DNA from: a virus
Lineage: Duplodnaviria > Heunggongvirae > Uroviricota > Caudoviricetes
Reading direction: 5' to 3' (one strand)
IMG/VR virus record: IMGVR_UViG_2695420478_000001
DNA length: 10,853 nt
The notes under the pieces were generated by a model that saw only the letters and a list, made by a program, of their open reading frames with translations, was not told the origin of the DNA and searched no databases. Position numbers and translations under genes: made by a program. Below, piece after piece: positions 1 to 7,208 of the stretch; positions within the stretch are counted from its first letter, which is position 1, and each line of letters starts with the position of its first letter.

Positions 1-122
1 GTCGCTGGTCGCTGGTCGCTGGTCGCTGGTCGCTGGTCGCTGGTCGCTGGTCGCTGGTCGCTGGTCGCTGGTCGCTGGTCGCTGGTCGCTGGTCGCTGGT
101 CGCTGGTCGCTGGTCGCTGGTC
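1..122. repeat. Perfect heptanucleotide tandem repeat (GTCGCTG)n, 17 full copies plus a partial one; truncated by the window edge
   Basis: Direct reading: the unit gtcgctg repeats without a mismatch from 1 to 119, then gtc before diverging. The array may continue to the left of the window. Confidence 0.95.
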
Positions 123-131
123 TGGCAGCAT
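1..131 (-). CDS. Putative 5' end of a minus-strand gene: ATG at 131..129, then MLPD followed by (QRPATSD)n encoded by the heptamer repeat; partial, continues beyond the window
   Basis: Minus-strand sequence aaaAGGAtgattttATG places an AGGA ribosome-binding site 7 nt upstream of the ATG. The repeat has no stop codon in any frame on either strand. Orientation matches the surrounding operon. The gene body is not visible. Confidence 0.3.
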   Translation of the reverse strand, partial: MLPDQRPATSDQRPATSDQRPATSDQRPATSDQRPATSDQRPA

Positions 132-305
132 AAAATCATCCTTTTATGAAAATCAACGTTTTTTGAGCACTCGCACACAAAAAATTACCGCATTGGTTGC
201 AACGACAACCTTCATTTTGCGGAGCATATGACAAATAAAGTACGGGTGCGTTGAGGATGCCAGACACATCAGAGGTGGCGGGAGATTACTCCCCTGCCTG
301 GTCTC

Positions 306-461
306 TTACTTCTCAGATTCGTAGTCTACGAAGACAGCGACCTCCGTCTGGCCGGTTCGGATTCGTACCTCGCAGAAGTCTTTCCTCGTTACCAGTGCTA
401 TCACTACGACGGTAATACAGATGACGATCAGGGCGATTAACATCGCCTTTTGCTGCTTCAT
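306..461 (-). CDS. Hok/Gef-family type I toxin, 51 aa, HokD/RelF-like (MKQQKAMLIALIVICITVVVIALVTRKDFCEVRIRTGQTEVAVFVDYESEK)
   Basis: Manual translation of the minus strand from the ATG at 461 to the TAA at 308..306. GGAG ribosome-binding site upstream. N-terminal transmembrane helix plus the conserved RK.LCE..R....EVA motif typical of Hok/Gef toxins (recalled family features). Below the 60-aa cutoff of the ORF track. Confidence 0.85.
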   Translation of the reverse strand: MKQQKAMLIALIVICITVVVIALVTRKDFCEVRIRTGQTEVAVFVDYESEK

Positions 462-636
462 AGCCTACTTCTCCTTGCCTTTCGGCACGTAAGAGGCTAA
501 CCTAAGTTTGTAAGTCATAGATTTGGCCTCAGATTAATGTTAAGCGTCCTGCAAGACGCGTAATGTTAACTGGGGCTTTTCTCTGTCTGCCTTACGGCTG
601 CATGCCCGAGGCAGACAGCCTCAAGCACCCGCAGCT

Positions 637-664
637 ATTCTACAGTAAAAACTCGCGCTTTCAA
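637..664 (-). promoter_or_regulatory. Candidate sigma70 promoter TTGAAA-16 nt-TAGAAT reading leftward; the -35 overlaps the Q stop codon (pR'-like position, or the hok promoter)
   Basis: Minus-strand reading gggaaaTTGAAAgcgcgagtttttactgTAGAATagc. The position immediately downstream of Q is where lambdoid late promoters sit. Confidence 0.35.
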
Positions 665-1086
665 TTTCCCGCACGTCCGGCAAACTGACTGGCCTGTGAT
701 CCTGATGGTTCACGCTCAACGTACCTGTCCATTTCCAGCTTTACTCCCTGCATGATCAACATCCCCTCAATAACACCTTCTGCTTTTTGCAGTACCCGCC
801 CGGCCCAGCAATCAGAGCGCCCATGCTTACGGCCCAGTGACATAAGCGTCATCCCGAACACATAATAATCATACAGAAAATCATGCAAATCGCTGTTGTT
901 GACGTTCAGTTGCGCCATGCAATTGCTGATAATCAGCGCATCGTCATCGGTACACTGAGGCCGTGATTTAACCTTTGACGGGATCAGCCCCTTAAATCCG
1001 GCGGCAATGGGCGACCAGCTCACATCCTCATGATTATTGGCCACCCATGCGCCCCAGCGTTCAAGCACCTGCTGAATATCACGCAT
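661..1086 (-). CDS. Q: Late-gene antitermination protein Q (Q-family antiterminator, 933W/phage 21-like short form, about 141 aa)
   Basis: ORF 661..1170. Start chosen at the internal Met ([14 protein letters not shown]...) because its ATG overlaps the NinH stop (GATGCGTGA). Size and sequence resemble short Q proteins. Last gene of the early-right operon, after ninG and ninH. Confidence 0.75.
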
Positions 1087-1279: not shown

Positions 1280-1881
1280 GCGGCCTCACTTCTGCTGTTT
1301 CGCAGGTCTTTGAGTTTCTGTTGGTACTCTGCCTTGATGGCCCTGCACTCTTCGACAGTCCAGCGATGGCGGTTATGGTTTGATTCGATTTCGTCTACTG
1401 CTTCCTGCCCGATGCGGTTAATCAGTTCGACGCGATACGGAACGAGATTTCCGCTTTTGTGCTGGTTGCACACCACGCATTGCTTGTGAATATTGCGTTC
1501 ATCAAATCGGAGTTGAGGCGCCGCAGCAGTTGTCCGGTAATGTCCGGCATCCCACTGAGCAGACGTGAGCGTTCCGCACGAGATACATGGTAAGTCGCGG
1601 TCTCTTTCTCTGATGAAGGCGTTTACGGCTTGTTGGGCTTGTTTAATCCAGTAACTGCGGGGCTTTAAGGCGAGTTTTCGAATCTTAATTTTATCTTTCT
1701 GTTTCTGCTCCTCTCGTCGTCGTTTCTTCTCTGCTGTTTTTTCCGCCTTTTCGCGTTCTTTATTTCGTCGTTCGAGCGCTAATTTAGTTCCGTGTTCCGG
1801 GCTGCACCACCACTGATTTGAGAATGCCGGGTGAAACCATTCCTTACAGATTTTGCATTTCCTTCGCGCTGGTTTAGCCAT
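1276..1881 (-). CDS. ninG: NinG / Rap recombination protein (structure-specific endonuclease), 201 aa
   Basis: Cysteine-rich N-terminus (CKICKEW...CSPEHG), a basic K/R/E-rich linker and a C-terminal C..C/H motif typical of lambda NinG. Position upstream of ninH and Q. Confidence 0.9.
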
Positions 1882-2609
1882 TAAGCAGCCTCCCCTGTTA
1901 CTTTAAGCATTCCGTTATCTAGCAGCTTTCTTGTCAGCCACTGTTGACCACGCCCGGTGATTTTTGTGGTGAACGATATCTGTATTCCGTGATTTGTGTT
2001 GACCGCTGTTTCTTTCACTGTGAAATAGCCACGATCCATATATTCCTGCATTGGCACATTGCGCCGGGAGCCTGAAGCAATAAGGATTTTGTGATCGCGC
2101 ATCCACGCAAACAGTTTGTTTGGACCAATACCAACAACCTTTGCAAAGTTTCCAATCAAAATTCCGCTGGACTCGCCAACGCGATCGGCAAACTCAACTT
2201 TAGGTGCTGCGAGAGCAAGCTGTTTCTCCAGTTCAGCCTTCTGGTCTTCAAGGTCGGCCGCAAGGCGCAATGCCTCAGAAAAGGTTTGTGGTATTTTCGC
2301 GGTTGCCCCTTCGAGTTCTCGCCAGCGGTCAACAAGGCGAGCGGTGAATTCCGGCGACAACTGGGCAACGACAATAATGCTGTCGCGCTTACCTTGTTCG
2401 CCCTCAAAAACGTAAGCCTCTACGCCACGAAGTAATCCTAAGTTATTGATTTTTTCGAAAACCACCATTGGGGGATTTCGGATCACACCTCGAACCGCCA
2501 GTCGTTCAATGGATTGTTTCACCTTGTCATGACGACTTCCCACCAACTCAGCGATTTCAATGCTTGTCATTTTGATGGCATTGCTATTTATCAGCTCATT
2601 CATTGTCAT
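1881..2609 (-). CDS. Phage antirepressor / regulatory protein: N-terminal Rha-type domain plus C-terminal ANT (KilAC) domain, 242 aa
   Basis: N-terminus ...[22 protein letters not shown]... (Rha-like). C-terminus ...[39 protein letters not shown]... (ANT-like). Stop overlaps the ninG start (TAATG). Confidence 0.75.
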
Positions 2610-2677: not shown

Positions 2678-3355
2678 TCAGTAGCGATGCAGTGAAGGCG
2701 GCAACTCTTTGTTCTTAAGCCTTACCCATGCGGAAAGGTTCGTTGGTCCGTCTGGCTCATTAATATCAACATCTCGTGTGTGGTTGATTAAAACATCTCT
2801 CGCCATTCCGATAACATACGAAAACTCATGACCGTAGTCGTAGCATCTGCCGGAATAGTTCGATTGAATTTGTTTTAGCGCCGGATACAGTTCGCGGAAT
2901 AATGCCTGTGAGCGGTTAGCATAATCCCATAACCATACAAGGCTGTTTGCTTCTTTTGCGGAAAGCTCGTTGGTGCTCTTCTCTTGTTTGCCAGTATTTT
3001 TCTTGCACTGGCTGAAATAGCAGTCTTCCAGTTTTTCGAACACATCCCACGCCTGATCGGTTTCGAGCATTTTGGCGTGACGGGCTGCTCCGCGTTCTGT
3101 CCAGAGGATGAGGGAGCGGGCATTTTTACCAACTAACCCGATTGTTTCGGGTCTGTTCTTAAACTCGCGTAATTCGTTTTTTTCAATTTTAAAGTAATGC
3201 TTTCCGGGCATGAATCGCGTCGTGTTGTTCAGAAAGTTATCAGAAATGTTTTTGATTTTTGTTCCGTAAAGGTGAGCCAACAGTTCAGTAGTAATTACGG
3301 GGATCTGGTTATAGGTAACAGGGGAAAGGTTTTCGACAGAAATTTGAACAGCCAT
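2678..3355 (-). CDS. Roi-like DNA-binding protein with N-terminal ORF6N domain, 225 aa
   Basis: ...[23 protein letters not shown]...[17 protein letters not shown]...[33 protein letters not shown] matches the ORF6N pattern found in HK022 Roi-type proteins (recalled). GAGG ribosome-binding site 5 nt upstream of the ATG at 3355. Confidence 0.7.
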
Positions 3356-3518
3356 AATGACCTCGCGTTTCGATAATTTTTACCTCGCCACCGTCAGGTG
3401 CTAATCATCGTGGTGGCGAACTGTGCGGGGTTAGCACTACCGGTCGAAACATCCGGCGAGCCTTTCGGCTCCCCCACACAGCCCGCCATAAATCGCGAAT
3501 GTGACTGTGCTTAGCGCA

Positions 3519-3541
3519 TAAAAAAACCGCCAGCGCGGTTA
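3519..3541 (-). terminator. Intrinsic terminator in the nin intergenic gap (stem aaccgc/gcggtt, loop gctg, 7-T run on the minus strand)
   Basis: Minus-strand transcript reads ...aaccgcgctggcggtttttttatgc. Lies in a 275-bp stretch with no ORF of 60 aa or more. Confidence 0.5.
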
Positions 3542-3630
3542 TGCACCGTTTCGATATCCGGGGTGCTAATCCCGACGCCAGATTTTGCTGGCGCGTGAGG
3601 AATATAGCCCCGAATAAATCATCGCGTCAA

Positions 3631-5575: not shown

Positions 5576-6273
5576 ACACTTGCTCCTTTCAGTCCGAACT
5601 TAGCTTTAATTTCTGCGATCTTCGCCAGAGCCTGAACATGATTTAGAGGTCTGCCGCCCATGACAGGAAGTTGTTTTACTGGTTCAGGAATCACCTCACC
5701 ACGGTTAATTCTCGCAGTCATATGGACAAGCTCATCTGCGGCCTTGCGCCGTAATTCCGCGTCAGTCAGTGCATTGGCCCGCATGTTCTGGTACAGGTTG
5801 GTAACCAGCCAGTAGTGCGCGTTCGATTTCCACGGATAAGACTCTGCATCCGGATACAGGCCTCGCTTCCGGCAATACTCGTAAACCATATCAACCAGCT
5901 CGCTGACGTTTGGCAGTCCGGCGATAACGGATGCTTCTTCCCGGCACCATGCAACAAACTGCCCGGGTGATGGAAGAAATGGTCGATTCTGCCGACGGGC
6001 TACGCGCATTCCTGCGTTAACCTGTTCCATCGAGGTGATCCCGTTTTCCCGGAAAGCCAGAACCCACTGGCGGCGGATTTCATTCAGTTCGTTCTGGTCC
6101 CGGTTAGCCAGACTCGCCGGGAAAGTTGCCAGTAACTGGCTGAACACACCGTTGATGATCTGCGCTACCTGTTGTACCTGCGGCTTTTCGTCGTACTGTT
6201 CCGGCATGTTGTTGGTGATCCGACGCATCTGCTCACGGTCAAAGTTAACCATCTGTGCGGCGATGTTTTTCAT
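5572..6273 (-). CDS. P: Replication protein P (DnaB helicase loader), 233 aa, lambda-type
   Basis: MKNIAAQMVNFDREQMRRITNNMPEQYDEKPQVQQVAQIINGVFSQLL... matches lambda P in sequence and length (233 aa). Overlaps the O stop and the ren start. Confidence 0.95.
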   Translation of the reverse strand: MKNIAAQMVNFDREQMRRITNNMPEQYDEKPQVQQVAQIINGVFSQLLATFPASLANRDQNELNEIRRQWVLAFRENGITSMEQVNAGMRVARRQNRPFLPSPGQFVAWCREEASVIAGLPNVSELVDMVYEYCRKRGLYPDAESYPWKSNAHYWLVTNLYQNMRANALTDAELRRKAADELVHMTARINRGEVIPEPVKQLPVMGGRPLNHVQALAKIAEIKAKFGLKGASV

Positions 6274-7208
6274 AAATCCACCCCGTAAATCCAGTCAGTG
6301 TTTGTCAGGTCGAGTTTTGGTTTTCCAGCTGTCACGCCAGCCTGTTGCTTGTTACGGTTGATTTCGAGTTGGGTCCACTTGTCGCGGAGTTTGGCCGGAC
6401 TTAGCACGTTACCGGACCAGAAGTTGTCCTGGCATGCCCAGCGGAACAGCACGCACATGTCGCGGTGGTTACGTCCGTCACGTTCACGCATCAGGCGGAT
6501 ATCGTTAGCCCACCCTGCAAAATTCGGTTTTCTGGCTGATGGTGCGATGGTCTTCACCATGTCAAACATCCACTCTGCGGCGGTCAGGTCTTCTGCTGTT
6601 CCCCACTTGCTGCCGCTCTGAATTGCAGCATCCGGTTTAACCACAGAAAGATCGTTTTCTGGCTGGTCAGAGGATTCGCCAGAATTCTCGGACGAATAAT
6701 CTTTTCTTTTTTCTTTTGTAATAGTGTCTTTTGTGTCCCCCTGTTTTGAGGGATAGCAATCCCCTAATTTGAGGGATGTTTTATCCCTCGTTTTAGGGGA
6801 TTTTCCCTCGTTTTGAGGGATGTCCCTCATTTTAGGGGAACTTCCCTCGTTTTGAGGGATGCACCATTCTGAGATGTTTTTATTTGGTCCAAACATGCCG
6901 CCTTGCTGCTTGATAATATTCATTCTGACGAGTTCTAACTTGGCTTCATTGCACCGTTTGACAGGTAACTTTGTAATCTCGCTAAGTTGAGAATCGGTGA
7001 TTCTGTCCATTGGTTTATTCCACCCATAGGTTTTACGCAGAATGGCAAGCAGCACTTTAAACTGTCGCTTGGTCAGATCTGCGCCTGAATAAGCCTCAAT
7101 CAGCATATTTGATAGTCTGGCGTAACCATCATCGAGATCTGCCACATTACGCTCCTGTCCGGCAAAGTTACTTCTGCCGAAGTTGAGTATTTTTGCTGTA
7201 TTTGTCAT
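6270..7208 (-). CDS. O: Replication initiator O, 312 aa, lambda-type, with the origin embedded in its coding sequence
   Basis: MTNTAKILNFGRSNFAGQERNVADLDDGYARLSNMLIEAYSGADLTKRQFKVLLAILRKTYGWNKP... matches lambda O. The iteron array and AT-rich tract lie inside the gene. Confidence 0.95.
   Translation of the reverse strand: MTNTAKILNFGRSNFAGQERNVADLDDGYARLSNMLIEAYSGADLTKRQFKVLLAILRKTYGWNKPMDRITDSQLSEITKLPVKRCNEAKLELVRMNIIKQQGGMFGPNKNISEWCIPQNEGSSPKMRDIPQNEGKSPKTRDKTSLKLGDCYPSKQGDTKDTITKEKRKDYSSENSGESSDQPENDLSVVKPDAAIQSGSKWGTAEDLTAAEWMFDMVKTIAPSARKPNFAGWANDIRLMRERDGRNHRDMCVLFRWACQDNFWSGNVLSPAKLRDKWTQLEINRNKQQAGVTAGKPKLDLTNTDWIYGVDL
6690..6862. repeat. Replication origin (ori-lambda type): six iterons of about 19 bp (6736-6860, TCCCTC-N-GAGGGA dyads spaced about 20-23 bp apart) plus an adjacent AT-rich tract (6690-6735)
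   Basis: Six iterons read directly, starting near 6736, 6759, 6783, 6803, 6823 and 6842. The AT-rich tract is cttttcttttttcttttgtaatagtgtcttttgtg. Confidence 0.9.

What the first reader, a model, noticed from the sequence alone, without database searches (positions are those of the whole stretch)
1..131. Perfect 7-bp tandem repeat (17 or more copies) directly after a ribosome-binding site and ATG: candidate phase-variable switch
The unit GTCGCTG repeats without a single mismatch from position 1 to 119 and probably continues beyond the window. On the minus strand an ATG at 131..129 with an AGGA ribosome-binding site sits 2 codons upstream of the array, giving MLPD(QRPATSD)n. Because 7 is not a multiple of 3, any gain or loss of a unit shifts the frame of everything downstream. 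This is the architecture of slipped-strand contingency loci, which is unusual in an enterobacterial prophage late region. Perfect repeat homogeneity suggests recent or ongoing slippage.
Basis: partly seen in the sequence, partly recalled or inferred. Interest (0 to 1): 0.7.

Follow-up and report, generated by a model that had tools for sequence, protein, structure and literature searches.

The report
Frame-shifting repeat switch on prophage restriction enzyme
The window starts inside a very unstable 7-base repeat placed just after the start codon of a prophage restriction-and-methylation enzyme gene, so gaining or losing one repeat unit should turn the enzyme on or off; the same repeat switch is already published for a different E. 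coli methylase, so this is a new carrier of a known trick.

Summary
Window 1-122 is a perfect (GTCGCTG)17.4 array cut by the window edge, preceded on the minus strand by AGGA, 7 nt, then ATG (131..129).

In 26 related E. coli loci the array has 16-120 units. It lies between that ATG and a 684-codon gene for a fused nuclease-methyltransferase (type IIB/IIG-like) with its own S subunit. The cassette sits between Q/hok and the tRNA and lysis genes of a Stx-phage-like prophage.

An unexpanded relative starts at the same ATG (MRSDQRPATSKSRK), so the ATG is native and the array grew from a 3-unit proto-repeat. Only one unit count in three keeps the frame; the other two frames stop 2 or 19 nt past the array. 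Loci with identical 3.7-kb flanks carry 30-82 units. Frame states are about even (8/8/10), yet the enzyme ORF is intact everywhere.

It is not wholly new. Atack et al. 2018 described CAGCGAC[n] in a STEC type III mod (M.Eco131I). That gene is plasmid-borne and unrelated, but shares the leader, ATG-CTG-CCA-GAC and the array. The module appears native to the gene here and transplanted onto the mod gene.

PGAP annotates the array's antisense translation as a 'YXWGXW repeat' or 'hypothetical' protein.

The parts
1..122 (-). Heptanucleotide array, (CAGCGAC)n on the coding strand. It is truncated by the window edge; 17.4 units are visible. It encodes (QRPATSD)n in all three frames and has no stop codon in any of the six frames.
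   Evidence: relatives carry 16-120 units
123..131 (-). Start codon ATG (131..129) plus the CTG and CCA codons (M-L-P). With GAC (122..120) this makes the invariant ATGCTGCCAGAC start of the restriction-methylase gene.
   Evidence: Invariant in all E. coli loci. It is the native start in the unexpanded relative L117 and in proteins P0003, P0009 and P0016.
139..142 (-). Shine-Dalgarno AGGA, 7 nt upstream of the ATG
   Evidence: Read directly from the sequence; conserved as AAGGA in relatives
137..139 (-). Second ATG in the +1 frame (MILCCQTSD...). It overlaps the SD and is probably not a genuine start.
   Evidence: Replaced by ATA or ACG in L112, L023, L117 and L130, and absent in the plasmid module. 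It has no properly spaced SD. Gene callers use it when it happens to be in frame.
132..163 (-). Leader of about 32 nt immediately upstream of the ATG. It is shared (24 identities, one 2-nt gap) with the leader of the plasmid type III mod gene that carries the same array.
   Evidence: 1 of 1000 shuffles reaches the observed score
306..630 (-). Context: hok/gef toxin ORF (306-461) and the hok/sok RNA element (456-630), lying between Q and the restriction gene
   Evidence: PGAP annotation of identical DNA; Rfam RF01794, 118 bits
637..664 (-). Context: sigma-70-like promoter (TTGAAA-16-TAGAAT) overlapping the Q stop codon. It is a candidate hok promoter and/or late promoter, and the only promoter-like site upstream of the restriction gene on this strand.
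   Evidence: a consensus match only
661..1086 (-). Context: antiterminator Q gene
   Evidence: PGAP annotation of near-identical DNA

Best explanation
Window 1-131 (minus strand) is the translation start of a prophage-borne restriction-modification gene, with a hypermutable heptanucleotide tract inserted right after codon 4. The gene encodes a single polypeptide with an N-terminal PD-(D/E)XK nuclease and an N6-adenine methyltransferase. A separate two-domain specificity (S) subunit follows it, which is the type IIB/IIG (BcgI/BsaXI-like) layout. Replication slippage adds or removes 7-nt units, and each step shifts the frame by one. When the number of GACCAGC units is a multiple of 3, the ATG at 131 reads through (QRPATSD)n into the enzyme (ON). 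In the other two frames translation stops 2 nt or 19 nt past the array (OFF).

Shown here: the anatomy, the native start codon, the frame logic, the very large and rapid copy-number variation, and the intact enzyme ORF in every locus.

Inferred: slippage as the mechanism (7-nt loops are too large for MutS-directed repair, from general knowledge); that protein output really toggles; and that this gives lysogen or phage populations a mixture of restricting/methylating cells and silent cells.
For: Array and start site.

Gene after the array.

Enzyme class:
- PADLOC REase_MTase_IIG, E = 1e-232, full length, and Specificity_II for the next gene.
- Pfam N6_Mtase, a weak VRR_NUC match, and Methylase_S.
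- P69-D70...E88-x-K90 and NPPY are invariant or nearly so in 29 homologues.
- Foldseek's longest alignments are to BsaXI (type IIB), DrdV and BpuSI (type IIG).
- No HsdR gene nearby.

Native start and proto-repeat: L117 and the 3- and 9-unit alleles; P0003, P0009, P0015 and P0016.

Position of the array: homologues in 77 loci from other phyla start M + 2-10 variable residues + S(I/V)EPNIADLANGW, so the array lies in a short unconserved N-terminal tail. None of the 80 loci from other species has an SSR at the gene start.

Hypervariability: 16-120 units in 26 loci, 20 arrays perfectly pure. There are 0 mismatches in 3,700 nt of flanks between loci with 30, 55, 57, 63, 72 and 82 units, and likewise for G1/2, G6/7 and G8, UCPROB-001 and -002, and OkiPb01714 and 01692.

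Frame states are 8/8/10, indistinguishable from random, while the 684-codon body is open in all 26 loci.

Experimental precedent for the same module on another gene: Atack 2018.
Against: There are no expression, methylome or single-culture data for this gene.

The window itself stops inside the array, so its own downstream gene and frame are inferred from relatives. All 29 complete genomes that share at least 80% of the leader carry the gene.

Arrays of 60-120 units are far longer than in classic contingency loci and would add up to about 280 disordered residues to the ON protein. It is untested whether such proteins are active.

Six arrays contain small interruptions that may be long-read errors, so individual frame calls are unreliable.

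No promoter was found between hok and the ATG, so it is unknown when the gene is transcribed.

Exactly 82 units recur in four unrelated records, which hints at an assembly artefact or at a constraint on length.
Confidence: 0.8

Rival explanations
1. A runaway neutral microsatellite. The tract is unstable but has no switching role. It has in effect knocked out a decaying prophage restriction gene, and the frame states are only noise.
For: Two thirds of loci are out of frame. Tracts are longer than in any classic contingency locus. Some S genes are disrupted (an IS1 in L022; split S in L021 and L026).
Against: The 684-codon body contains no stop in any of the 26 loci, even though most are out of frame at the array. 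The unit length is not a multiple of 3. The array sits exactly at the start codon in a tolerant N-terminal tail. The same module has been recruited by a second, unrelated methylase gene, which is hard to explain without utility.
Confidence: 0.12
2. The array encodes a functional variable-length N-terminal (QRPATSD)n extension or a free-standing repeat peptide. Length rather than frame is what matters, for example by tuning enzyme activity or assembly.
For: All three frames encode the same heptapeptide, so a (QRPATSD)n product is made from the ATG in every state. ON alleles with 1, 3 and 9 or more heptapeptides are on record.
Against: A 7-nt unit cannot change length without changing frame, so the frame effect dominates. 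No homologue outside Enterobacteria has any such extension. The peptide is low-complexity, and the N-terminus is predicted disordered (pLDDT 36 for residues 1-10).
Confidence: 0.05
3. The plus-strand ORF that PGAP annotates across the array ('YXWGXW repeat-containing protein' or 'hypothetical protein') is the real gene.
For: It is annotated in nearly all RefSeq records. There is a weak Pfam WXXGXW hit and a grass-antifreeze beta-roll hit.
Against: The ORF is only the antisense translation of the array (MIYCWSLVAGRWSLVAG...). It has a TTG start and a C-terminus that changes with the copy number. It has no NCBIfam hit. The Pfam hits come from the periodic low-complexity sequence. Its length tracks the array.
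Confidence: 0.02

Closest known systems
M.Eco131I, the CAGCGAC[n] phase-variable type III mod of a subset of STEC (Atack et al. 2018, Nucleic Acids Res 46:3532, PMC5909438)
   Same: The repeat unit is identical and so is the start, ATG CTG CCA GAC, giving MLPD(QRPATSD)n. About 32 nt of leader is similar. The logic is the same: an array just after the start codon of a DNA methyltransferase gene, with a variable n between strains. For that gene the authors showed tract-length heterogeneity within cultures and the methylation motif GCC(m6A)TC.
   Different: The protein is unrelated (BLASTP E = 0.23): a type III Mod followed by a Res helicase, on 92-117 kb plasmids next to a relaxase. Here it is a nuclease-methylase fusion plus S in a lambdoid prophage. 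Their primers are absent from all my loci. A 76%-identical mod relative starts MQTELIKELN with another leader and no array. The module therefore looks foreign to the mod lineage and native to the gene studied here.
Cj0031 (CjeNIII-type), the phase-variable type IIG restriction-modification enzyme of Campylobacter jejuni (Anjum et al. 2016, PMC4889913)
   Same: A single polypeptide with both nuclease and methylase is switched ON/OFF by a frame-shifting simple repeat inside the ORF, so restriction and protection go on and off together.
   Different: There the tract is a poly-G homopolymer, the gene is chromosomal, and the enzyme carries its own specificity domain. Here the unit is 7 nt with tens to over a hundred copies, there is a separate S subunit, and the gene is on a temperate phage. 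I saw only the paper's title and abstract in the search results; the other details about Cj0031 are from my own knowledge.
BcgI / BsaXI type IIB restriction-modification enzymes
   Same: A fused N-terminal PD-(D/E)XK nuclease and gamma-class N6-adenine methylase in one subunit, plus a separate type-I-like S subunit with two target-recognition domains. One source names a homologue 'Restriction enzyme subunit alpha'.
   Different: There is no detectable sequence match to any solved structure, including BsaXI. The fold match is weak (TM 0.27 on a pLDDT-69 model). Double-sided cleavage was not tested. No type IIB enzyme is known to me to be phase-variable.
SSR-bearing hsdM/hsdS genes of type I systems (Atack et al. 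2019/2020 survey, PMC7383803)
   Same: PGAP names the gene here 'HsdM family', and it carries an SSR at the 5' end like the hsdM genes in that survey.
   Different: The survey text does not mention E. coli, heptanucleotides or prophages. The gene fails the hsdM equivalog model (35.9 bits against a cut-off of 242.75), and there is no HsdR gene nearby.

Membership tests
SSR-driven phase-variable (contingency) locus | A simple-sequence tract, whose unit length is not a multiple of 3, inside the ORF near the start (or in the promoter) | tested here: met
   A 7-nt unit beginning at codon 4
SSR-driven phase-variable (contingency) locus | Tract length differs between closely related strains | tested here: met
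   16-120 units; loci with 0 mismatches in 3.7 kb of flanks differ by up to 52 units
SSR-driven phase-variable (contingency) locus | Length changes move the start codon in and out of frame with an otherwise intact ORF | tested here: met
   8 loci are in frame with the native ATG and 18 are not. The OFF frames stop 2 and 19 nt after the array. The body is open in all 26.
SSR-driven phase-variable (contingency) locus | Tract-length heterogeneity within one clonal culture, and reversible ON/OFF expression | not testable with these tools
   No read-level or expression data. It has been shown for the sister locus with the same module (Atack 2018).
Type IIB/IIG restriction-modification enzyme (BcgI/BsaXI-like) | Nuclease and N6-adenine methylase domains in one polypeptide | tested here: met
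   PADLOC REase_MTase_IIG at 1e-232 over the full length. PD...ExK and NPPY are invariant. Pfam N6_Mtase plus a weak VRR_NUC match.
Type IIB/IIG restriction-modification enzyme (BcgI/BsaXI-like) | A separate S subunit with two target-recognition domains encoded next to it (type IIB) | tested here: met
   Methylase_S with 2 matched stretches, and PADLOC Specificity_II. The gene lies directly downstream.
Type IIB/IIG restriction-modification enzyme (BcgI/BsaXI-like) | Fold similar to a solved type IIB enzyme | tested here: inconclusive
   BsaXI at E = 2.8e-7 over 670 columns, but TM 0.27 on a model of mean pLDDT 69. No sequence-level PDB hit.
Type IIB/IIG restriction-modification enzyme (BcgI/BsaXI-like) | Cuts on both sides of a bipartite site and methylates the same site | not testable with these tools
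   Needs biochemistry or a methylome
Type I restriction-modification system (the PGAP name 'HsdM family') | HsdM matching the equivalog model, with an HsdR helicase-nuclease gene in the locus | tested here: not met
   TIGR00497 scores 35.9 bits against a cut-off of 242.75. No HsdR gene in 16 kb of context.
M.Eco131I type III mod phasevarion (Atack 2018) | Same CAGCGAC[n] 5' module | tested here: met
   Identical ATGCTGCCAGAC plus the same unit, and a similar leader
M.Eco131I type III mod phasevarion (Atack 2018) | Type III Mod protein with a downstream Res gene | tested here: not met
   The proteins are unrelated, E = 0.23. The published primers are absent. The replicon and neighbours differ.
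YXWGXW / WXXGXW repeat protein (the PGAP name for the plus-strand ORF) | A genuine protein family match outside low-complexity sequence | tested here: not met
   No NCBIfam hit. Pfam WXXGXW at E = 4e-4 with no stretch that passes on its own. The ORF is only the array read backwards.

The most novel reading that the evidence does not exclude
The leader, ATG-CTG-CCA-GAC and (CAGCGAC)n form a portable switch cassette. It arose by expansion of a proto-repeat in the N-terminal tail of this phage-borne type IIB-like restriction-methylase gene, and was later recombined onto an unrelated plasmid-borne type III mod gene. Mobile elements of E. coli would thus share a ready-made ON/OFF module for their restriction and methylation genes. 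In the phage system it is paired with a second, in-frame 24-bp repeat in the S subunit (2-4 copies) that may retune target spacing. Together these would give a two-tier variable defence and epigenetic system carried by a Stx-phage-like prophage.
Probability: 0.5. Interest if true: 0.72.

Novelty: new member of a known kind. Interest (0 to 1): 0.6.

Why it matters
Repeat-driven phase variation is textbook biology in Haemophilus, Neisseria, Helicobacter and Campylobacter, but is regarded as exceptional in E. coli. Atack et al. (2018) called their STEC type III mod the first phase-variable methyltransferase found in E. coli.

This locus would be a second one, on a different mobile element (a Stx-phage-type lambdoid prophage of O111 and other STEC/EPEC strains, and also of commensal and probiotic strains). 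It controls an enzyme that both cuts and methylates DNA.

If it switches as predicted, lysogen populations are mixtures that differ in phage and plasmid uptake barriers and in genome-wide m6A marks. Phage bursts would be mixtures of modified and unmodified virions. That bears on phage host range, horizontal transfer in STEC, and strain typing.

The apparent transfer of the same switch module between unrelated genes suggests that such modules can themselves spread.

There is also a practical point. RefSeq annotation of this locus is systematically wrong: an antisense phantom ORF is called and the enzyme's start is truncated. Short-read assemblies break or collapse at the array.

Tried and rejected
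- A full-text search for the bare 7-mers returned only primer noise.
- A search for the 14-mer repeat strings found nothing, because the 2018 paper writes the tract as CAGCGAC[n].
- The Atack type I hsdM survey has no E. coli entry.
- Forde et al. (bioRxiv 173336) concerns a different type IIG enzyme, a SenTFIV homologue disrupted by an IS element.
- I could not establish whether the array coincides with one of the O111 MLVA loci (EH111-8, -11, -14), because the paper that defines those loci is not in the library.
- Sequence searches of the PDB, with the single protein and with a 29-sequence profile, gave no hit.
I reran it with database proteins.
- The RNA fold of the hok-to-ATG leader is no more stable than shuffles (z = -0.83), so I propose no riboregulatory element.
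- No sigma-70-like promoter or terminator was found between hok and the ATG on the coding strand.
- I considered and rejected the second ATG (139..137) as a real start, because it is not conserved.
- I considered and rejected the plus-strand ORF.
- Their cloning primer core is absent from the viral contig collection, which fits the finding that the mod gene is plasmid-borne.
- The supplement of the Atack 2018 paper is not held in the library.

Full report
**1. The observation**

Tandem Repeats Finder reports a perfect period-7 array at window 1-122: unit GTCGCTG, 17.4 copies, 100% matches, score 244. The raw sequence confirms it. The minus strand reads AAAAGGATGATTTT ATG CTG CCA GAC (CAGCGAC)n. 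AGGA lies at 142..139, seven bases before the ATG at 131..129. The array runs off the left edge of the window.

**2. What lies beyond the edge**

Window 100-1300 matches 29 of 5,426 complete E. coli genomes over at least 80% of its length, and also one phage record, PhiR12_3. The same 29 genomes carry the gene to the left of the array.

I fetched 26 loci. On the coding (minus) strand the gene order is:
- NinG, NinH, Q
- hok/sok
- [ATG + array + a 684-codon gene]
- a specificity-subunit (S) gene
- a remnant of a Dam-like methylase
- tRNA-Ile, tRNA-Arg, tRNA-Arg
- nanS-p
- holin, lysozyme, terminase

This is the Stx-phage backbone, with the cassette in the moron slot downstream of Q. Rfam confirms the hok/sok element at 456-630.

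**3. The array in relatives**

The array has 16 to 120 units, and 20 of the 26 arrays are perfectly pure. The small interruptions in the other six look like long-read indel errors.

Loci whose flanks (2,000 nt on one side, 1,700 nt on the other) are identical carry very different counts:
- 30, 55, 57, 63, about 72 and 82 units in the O111-type group
- about 92, 82 and 98 in the three Symbioflor strains G1/2, G6/7 and G8
- 75 and 82 in UCPROB-001 and -002
- 23 and 30 in two OkiPb strains

The tract therefore changes orders of magnitude faster than point substitutions accumulate. Many short-read contigs end inside the array, as this window does.

**4. Which start codon, and what the frame does**

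An 86%-identical relative with no expansion (L117) begins AAGGAtaatttt-ATG cgg tca GACCAAC GACCAGC AACCAGC aaa tca, which encodes MRSDQRPATSKSRK. The ATG that corresponds to window 131 is thus the native start, and the array grew out of an imperfect three-unit proto-repeat.

Alleles with 3 or 9 units are in frame with this ATG. Database proteins P0003, P0009 and P0016 begin MLPDQRPATS.

Homologues from other phyla begin with M, then 2-10 variable residues, then the conserved S(I/V)EPNIADLANGWLKSY. The array therefore sits in a short unconserved N-terminal tail.

Because 7 and 3 share no factor, all three frames of the array encode the same heptapeptide, QRPATSD, and no frame on either strand contains a stop. 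The ATG reads into the enzyme only when the number of GACCAGC units is a multiple of 3. Otherwise translation stops 2 or 19 nt after the array.

Among the 26 loci, 8 are in frame with the native ATG, 8 with a second ATG (139..137), and 10 with neither. This is indistinguishable from random. Even so, the 684-codon body is open in all 26, which argues for a gene maintained by selection and switched, not one that is decaying.

The second ATG overlaps the Shine-Dalgarno sequence. It is ATA or ACG in several alleles, so it is probably not used.

**5. What the gene encodes**

PGAP calls the gene 'HsdM family methyltransferase' and starts it at an internal TTG. The evidence points to a fused enzyme instead:
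- PADLOC matches the whole protein to REase_MTase_IIG (E = 1e-232), and the next gene to a type II specificity subunit.
- Pfam finds N6_Mtase, a weak nuclease match (VRR_NUC) near the N-terminus, and Methylase_S in the next gene.
- In an alignment of 29 homologues, P69-D70...E88-x-K90 (a PD-(D/E)XK nuclease motif), DFAxG and NPPY are invariant or nearly so.
- The hsdM equivalog model is missed by a wide margin.
- There is no HsdR gene in the neighbourhood.
- No solved structure matches by sequence.
- An AlphaFold model of the unexpanded allele P0003 (mean pLDDT 69) matches type I M subunits through its methylase core. Its longest alignments are to BsaXI (type IIB), DrdV and BpuSI (type IIG).

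I file it as a type IIB/IIG-like restriction-methylase with a separate S subunit. The biochemical hallmarks are untested.

The enzyme family is about 70% identical across very distant phyla. None of the 80 loci from other species has a simple repeat at the gene start. The switch is thus a lineage-specific addition in Enterobacteria.

**6. Prior art**

Atack et al. [quoted passage not shown] It is a type III mod gene of STEC strain DG131/3 with a CAGCGAC[26] tract, named M.Eco131I, with motif GCC(m6A)TC. The tract varies between strains, and fragment analysis showed that it also varies within cultures.

That gene is not the one in this window:
- Their primers are absent from all my loci.
- Their cloning primer core occurs in only 8 complete genomes, always on plasmids of 92-117 kb.
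- In plasmid NZ_CP182309 the gene lies next to a relaxase and is followed by a Res-type helicase.
- The two proteins are unrelated (E = 0.23).

Yet the plasmid gene begins with the identical ATG CTG CCA GAC followed by 29 units of the same repeat. The 32 nt before the ATG align collinearly with the window's leader, with 24 identities and one 2-nt gap.

A 76%-identical relative of the mod gene starts MQTELIKELN with an unrelated leader and no array. The module is therefore foreign to the mod lineage. It is native to the type IIB-like lineage, where unexpanded forms exist. The simplest reading is that the 5' module was transplanted from the gene studied here onto the mod gene.

I found no paper describing the array on the prophage enzyme. 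The library is incomplete, however, and I could not check REBASE or the MLVA literature.

**7. Mechanism and uncertainty**

Shown:
- the anatomy and the native start codon
- the frame logic
- hypervariability of the tract
- an intact ORF in every locus

Inferred:
- Slipped-strand mispairing is the cause. Loops of 7 nt are beyond the range of MutS-directed repair (general knowledge).
- Protein output really toggles.
- This gives bet-hedging between restricting/methylating cells and silent cells, or between modified and unmodified phage progeny.

Unknown:
- Which promoter drives the gene. The only sigma-70-like site on this strand is at 664..637, overlapping the Q stop codon and coinciding with the start of the hok/sok element. 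Expression may therefore be lysogenic, late, or both.
- Whether ON proteins with up to about 280 extra disordered residues are active.
- Why exactly 82 units recur in four unrelated records.

**8. Verdict**

The switch belongs to a known kind, and its repeat module has already been published on another E. coli gene, so this is a new member rather than a new mechanism.

The new elements are:
- the carrier, a Stx-phage-like prophage
- the target, a fused restriction-methylase with an S subunit
- the extreme tract lengths
- the evidence that the module moved between unrelated genes
- a second variable repeat in the S subunit

Interest is moderate to high.

Noticed in passing
Loci L001-L026, S gene directly downstream of the restriction-methylase gene (for example L024 against L025): The S subunit has its own in-frame 24-bp repeat (ATAGAAGAGCTGGAAGCGGCCCAT, encoding IEELEAAH) in the central spacer. 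Most loci have 2 copies; SCU-104, KY173, strain 48 and 04-00955 have 3; OkiPb01714 has 4 while the near-identical OkiPb01692 has 2. By analogy with EcoR124I/II this could change the spacer of a bipartite recognition site.
   Followed up: partly
L003, L009, L014, L016 (array): Exactly 82 units (574 bp) occur in four records from unrelated sources with different flank haplotypes (PhiR12_3, G6/7, O111:H8 7-32 9A, UCPROB-002). This is unlikely by chance given the 16-120 range. It could be an assembly artefact or a preferred length, and is unresolved.
   Followed up: no
Window 1-149 or 1-231 on the plus strand, and all RefSeq relatives: PGAP annotates the antisense translation of the array as 'YXWGXW repeat-containing protein' or 'hypothetical protein'. 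It also truncates the enzyme to an internal TTG start and names it HsdM. This misannotation is systematic across the fetched RefSeq loci.
   Followed up: yes
Window 3409-3607 (-), next to ORFs 1881-2609 (-) and 2678-3355 (-): Rfam finds C4 antisense RNA (3409-3493), its a1/b1 target (3555-3607) and isrK (3520-3594), upstream of a P63C-domain ORF and a KilAC antirepressor ORF. This is a P1/P7-type antirepressor immunity module inside a lambdoid prophage.
   Followed up: no
Window 306-630 (-): A hok/gef toxin gene with its sok RNA element lies between the Q antiterminator and the restriction gene. In several relatives hok is frameshifted.
   Followed up: no
Window 6784-6861: Four roughly 20-bp TCCCTC...GGGA repeats, the lambda-type origin iterons, lie inside the putative O replication gene (ORF 6270-7208, minus strand).
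   Followed up: no
Loci L027-L106: The restriction-methylase protein is about 70% identical across Bacteroidota, Bacillota, Pseudomonadota, Campylobacterota, Cyanobacteria, Spirochaetota and Saccharibacteria. Such conservation is unusual and implies recent wide horizontal spread.
   Followed up: partly
L134 1-20 and L135 (Salmonella enterica contigs): Salmonella homologues (85-86% identity) lie in other contexts: next to HicAB in L134, and next to integrative-conjugative-element genes in L135. Contig L134 starts exactly at the junction after the array (ACCAGC AAA TTA AGA AAG), which suggests an array that broke the assembly there too.
   Followed up: partly
L133 5474-5587: A 3' remnant of a site-specific (Dam-like) DNA methyltransferase gene sits immediately after the S gene and before the tRNA genes. 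The restriction cassette may have replaced most of the methylase gene that Stx phages carry at this position (the Stx-phage comparison is from my own knowledge).
   Followed up: no
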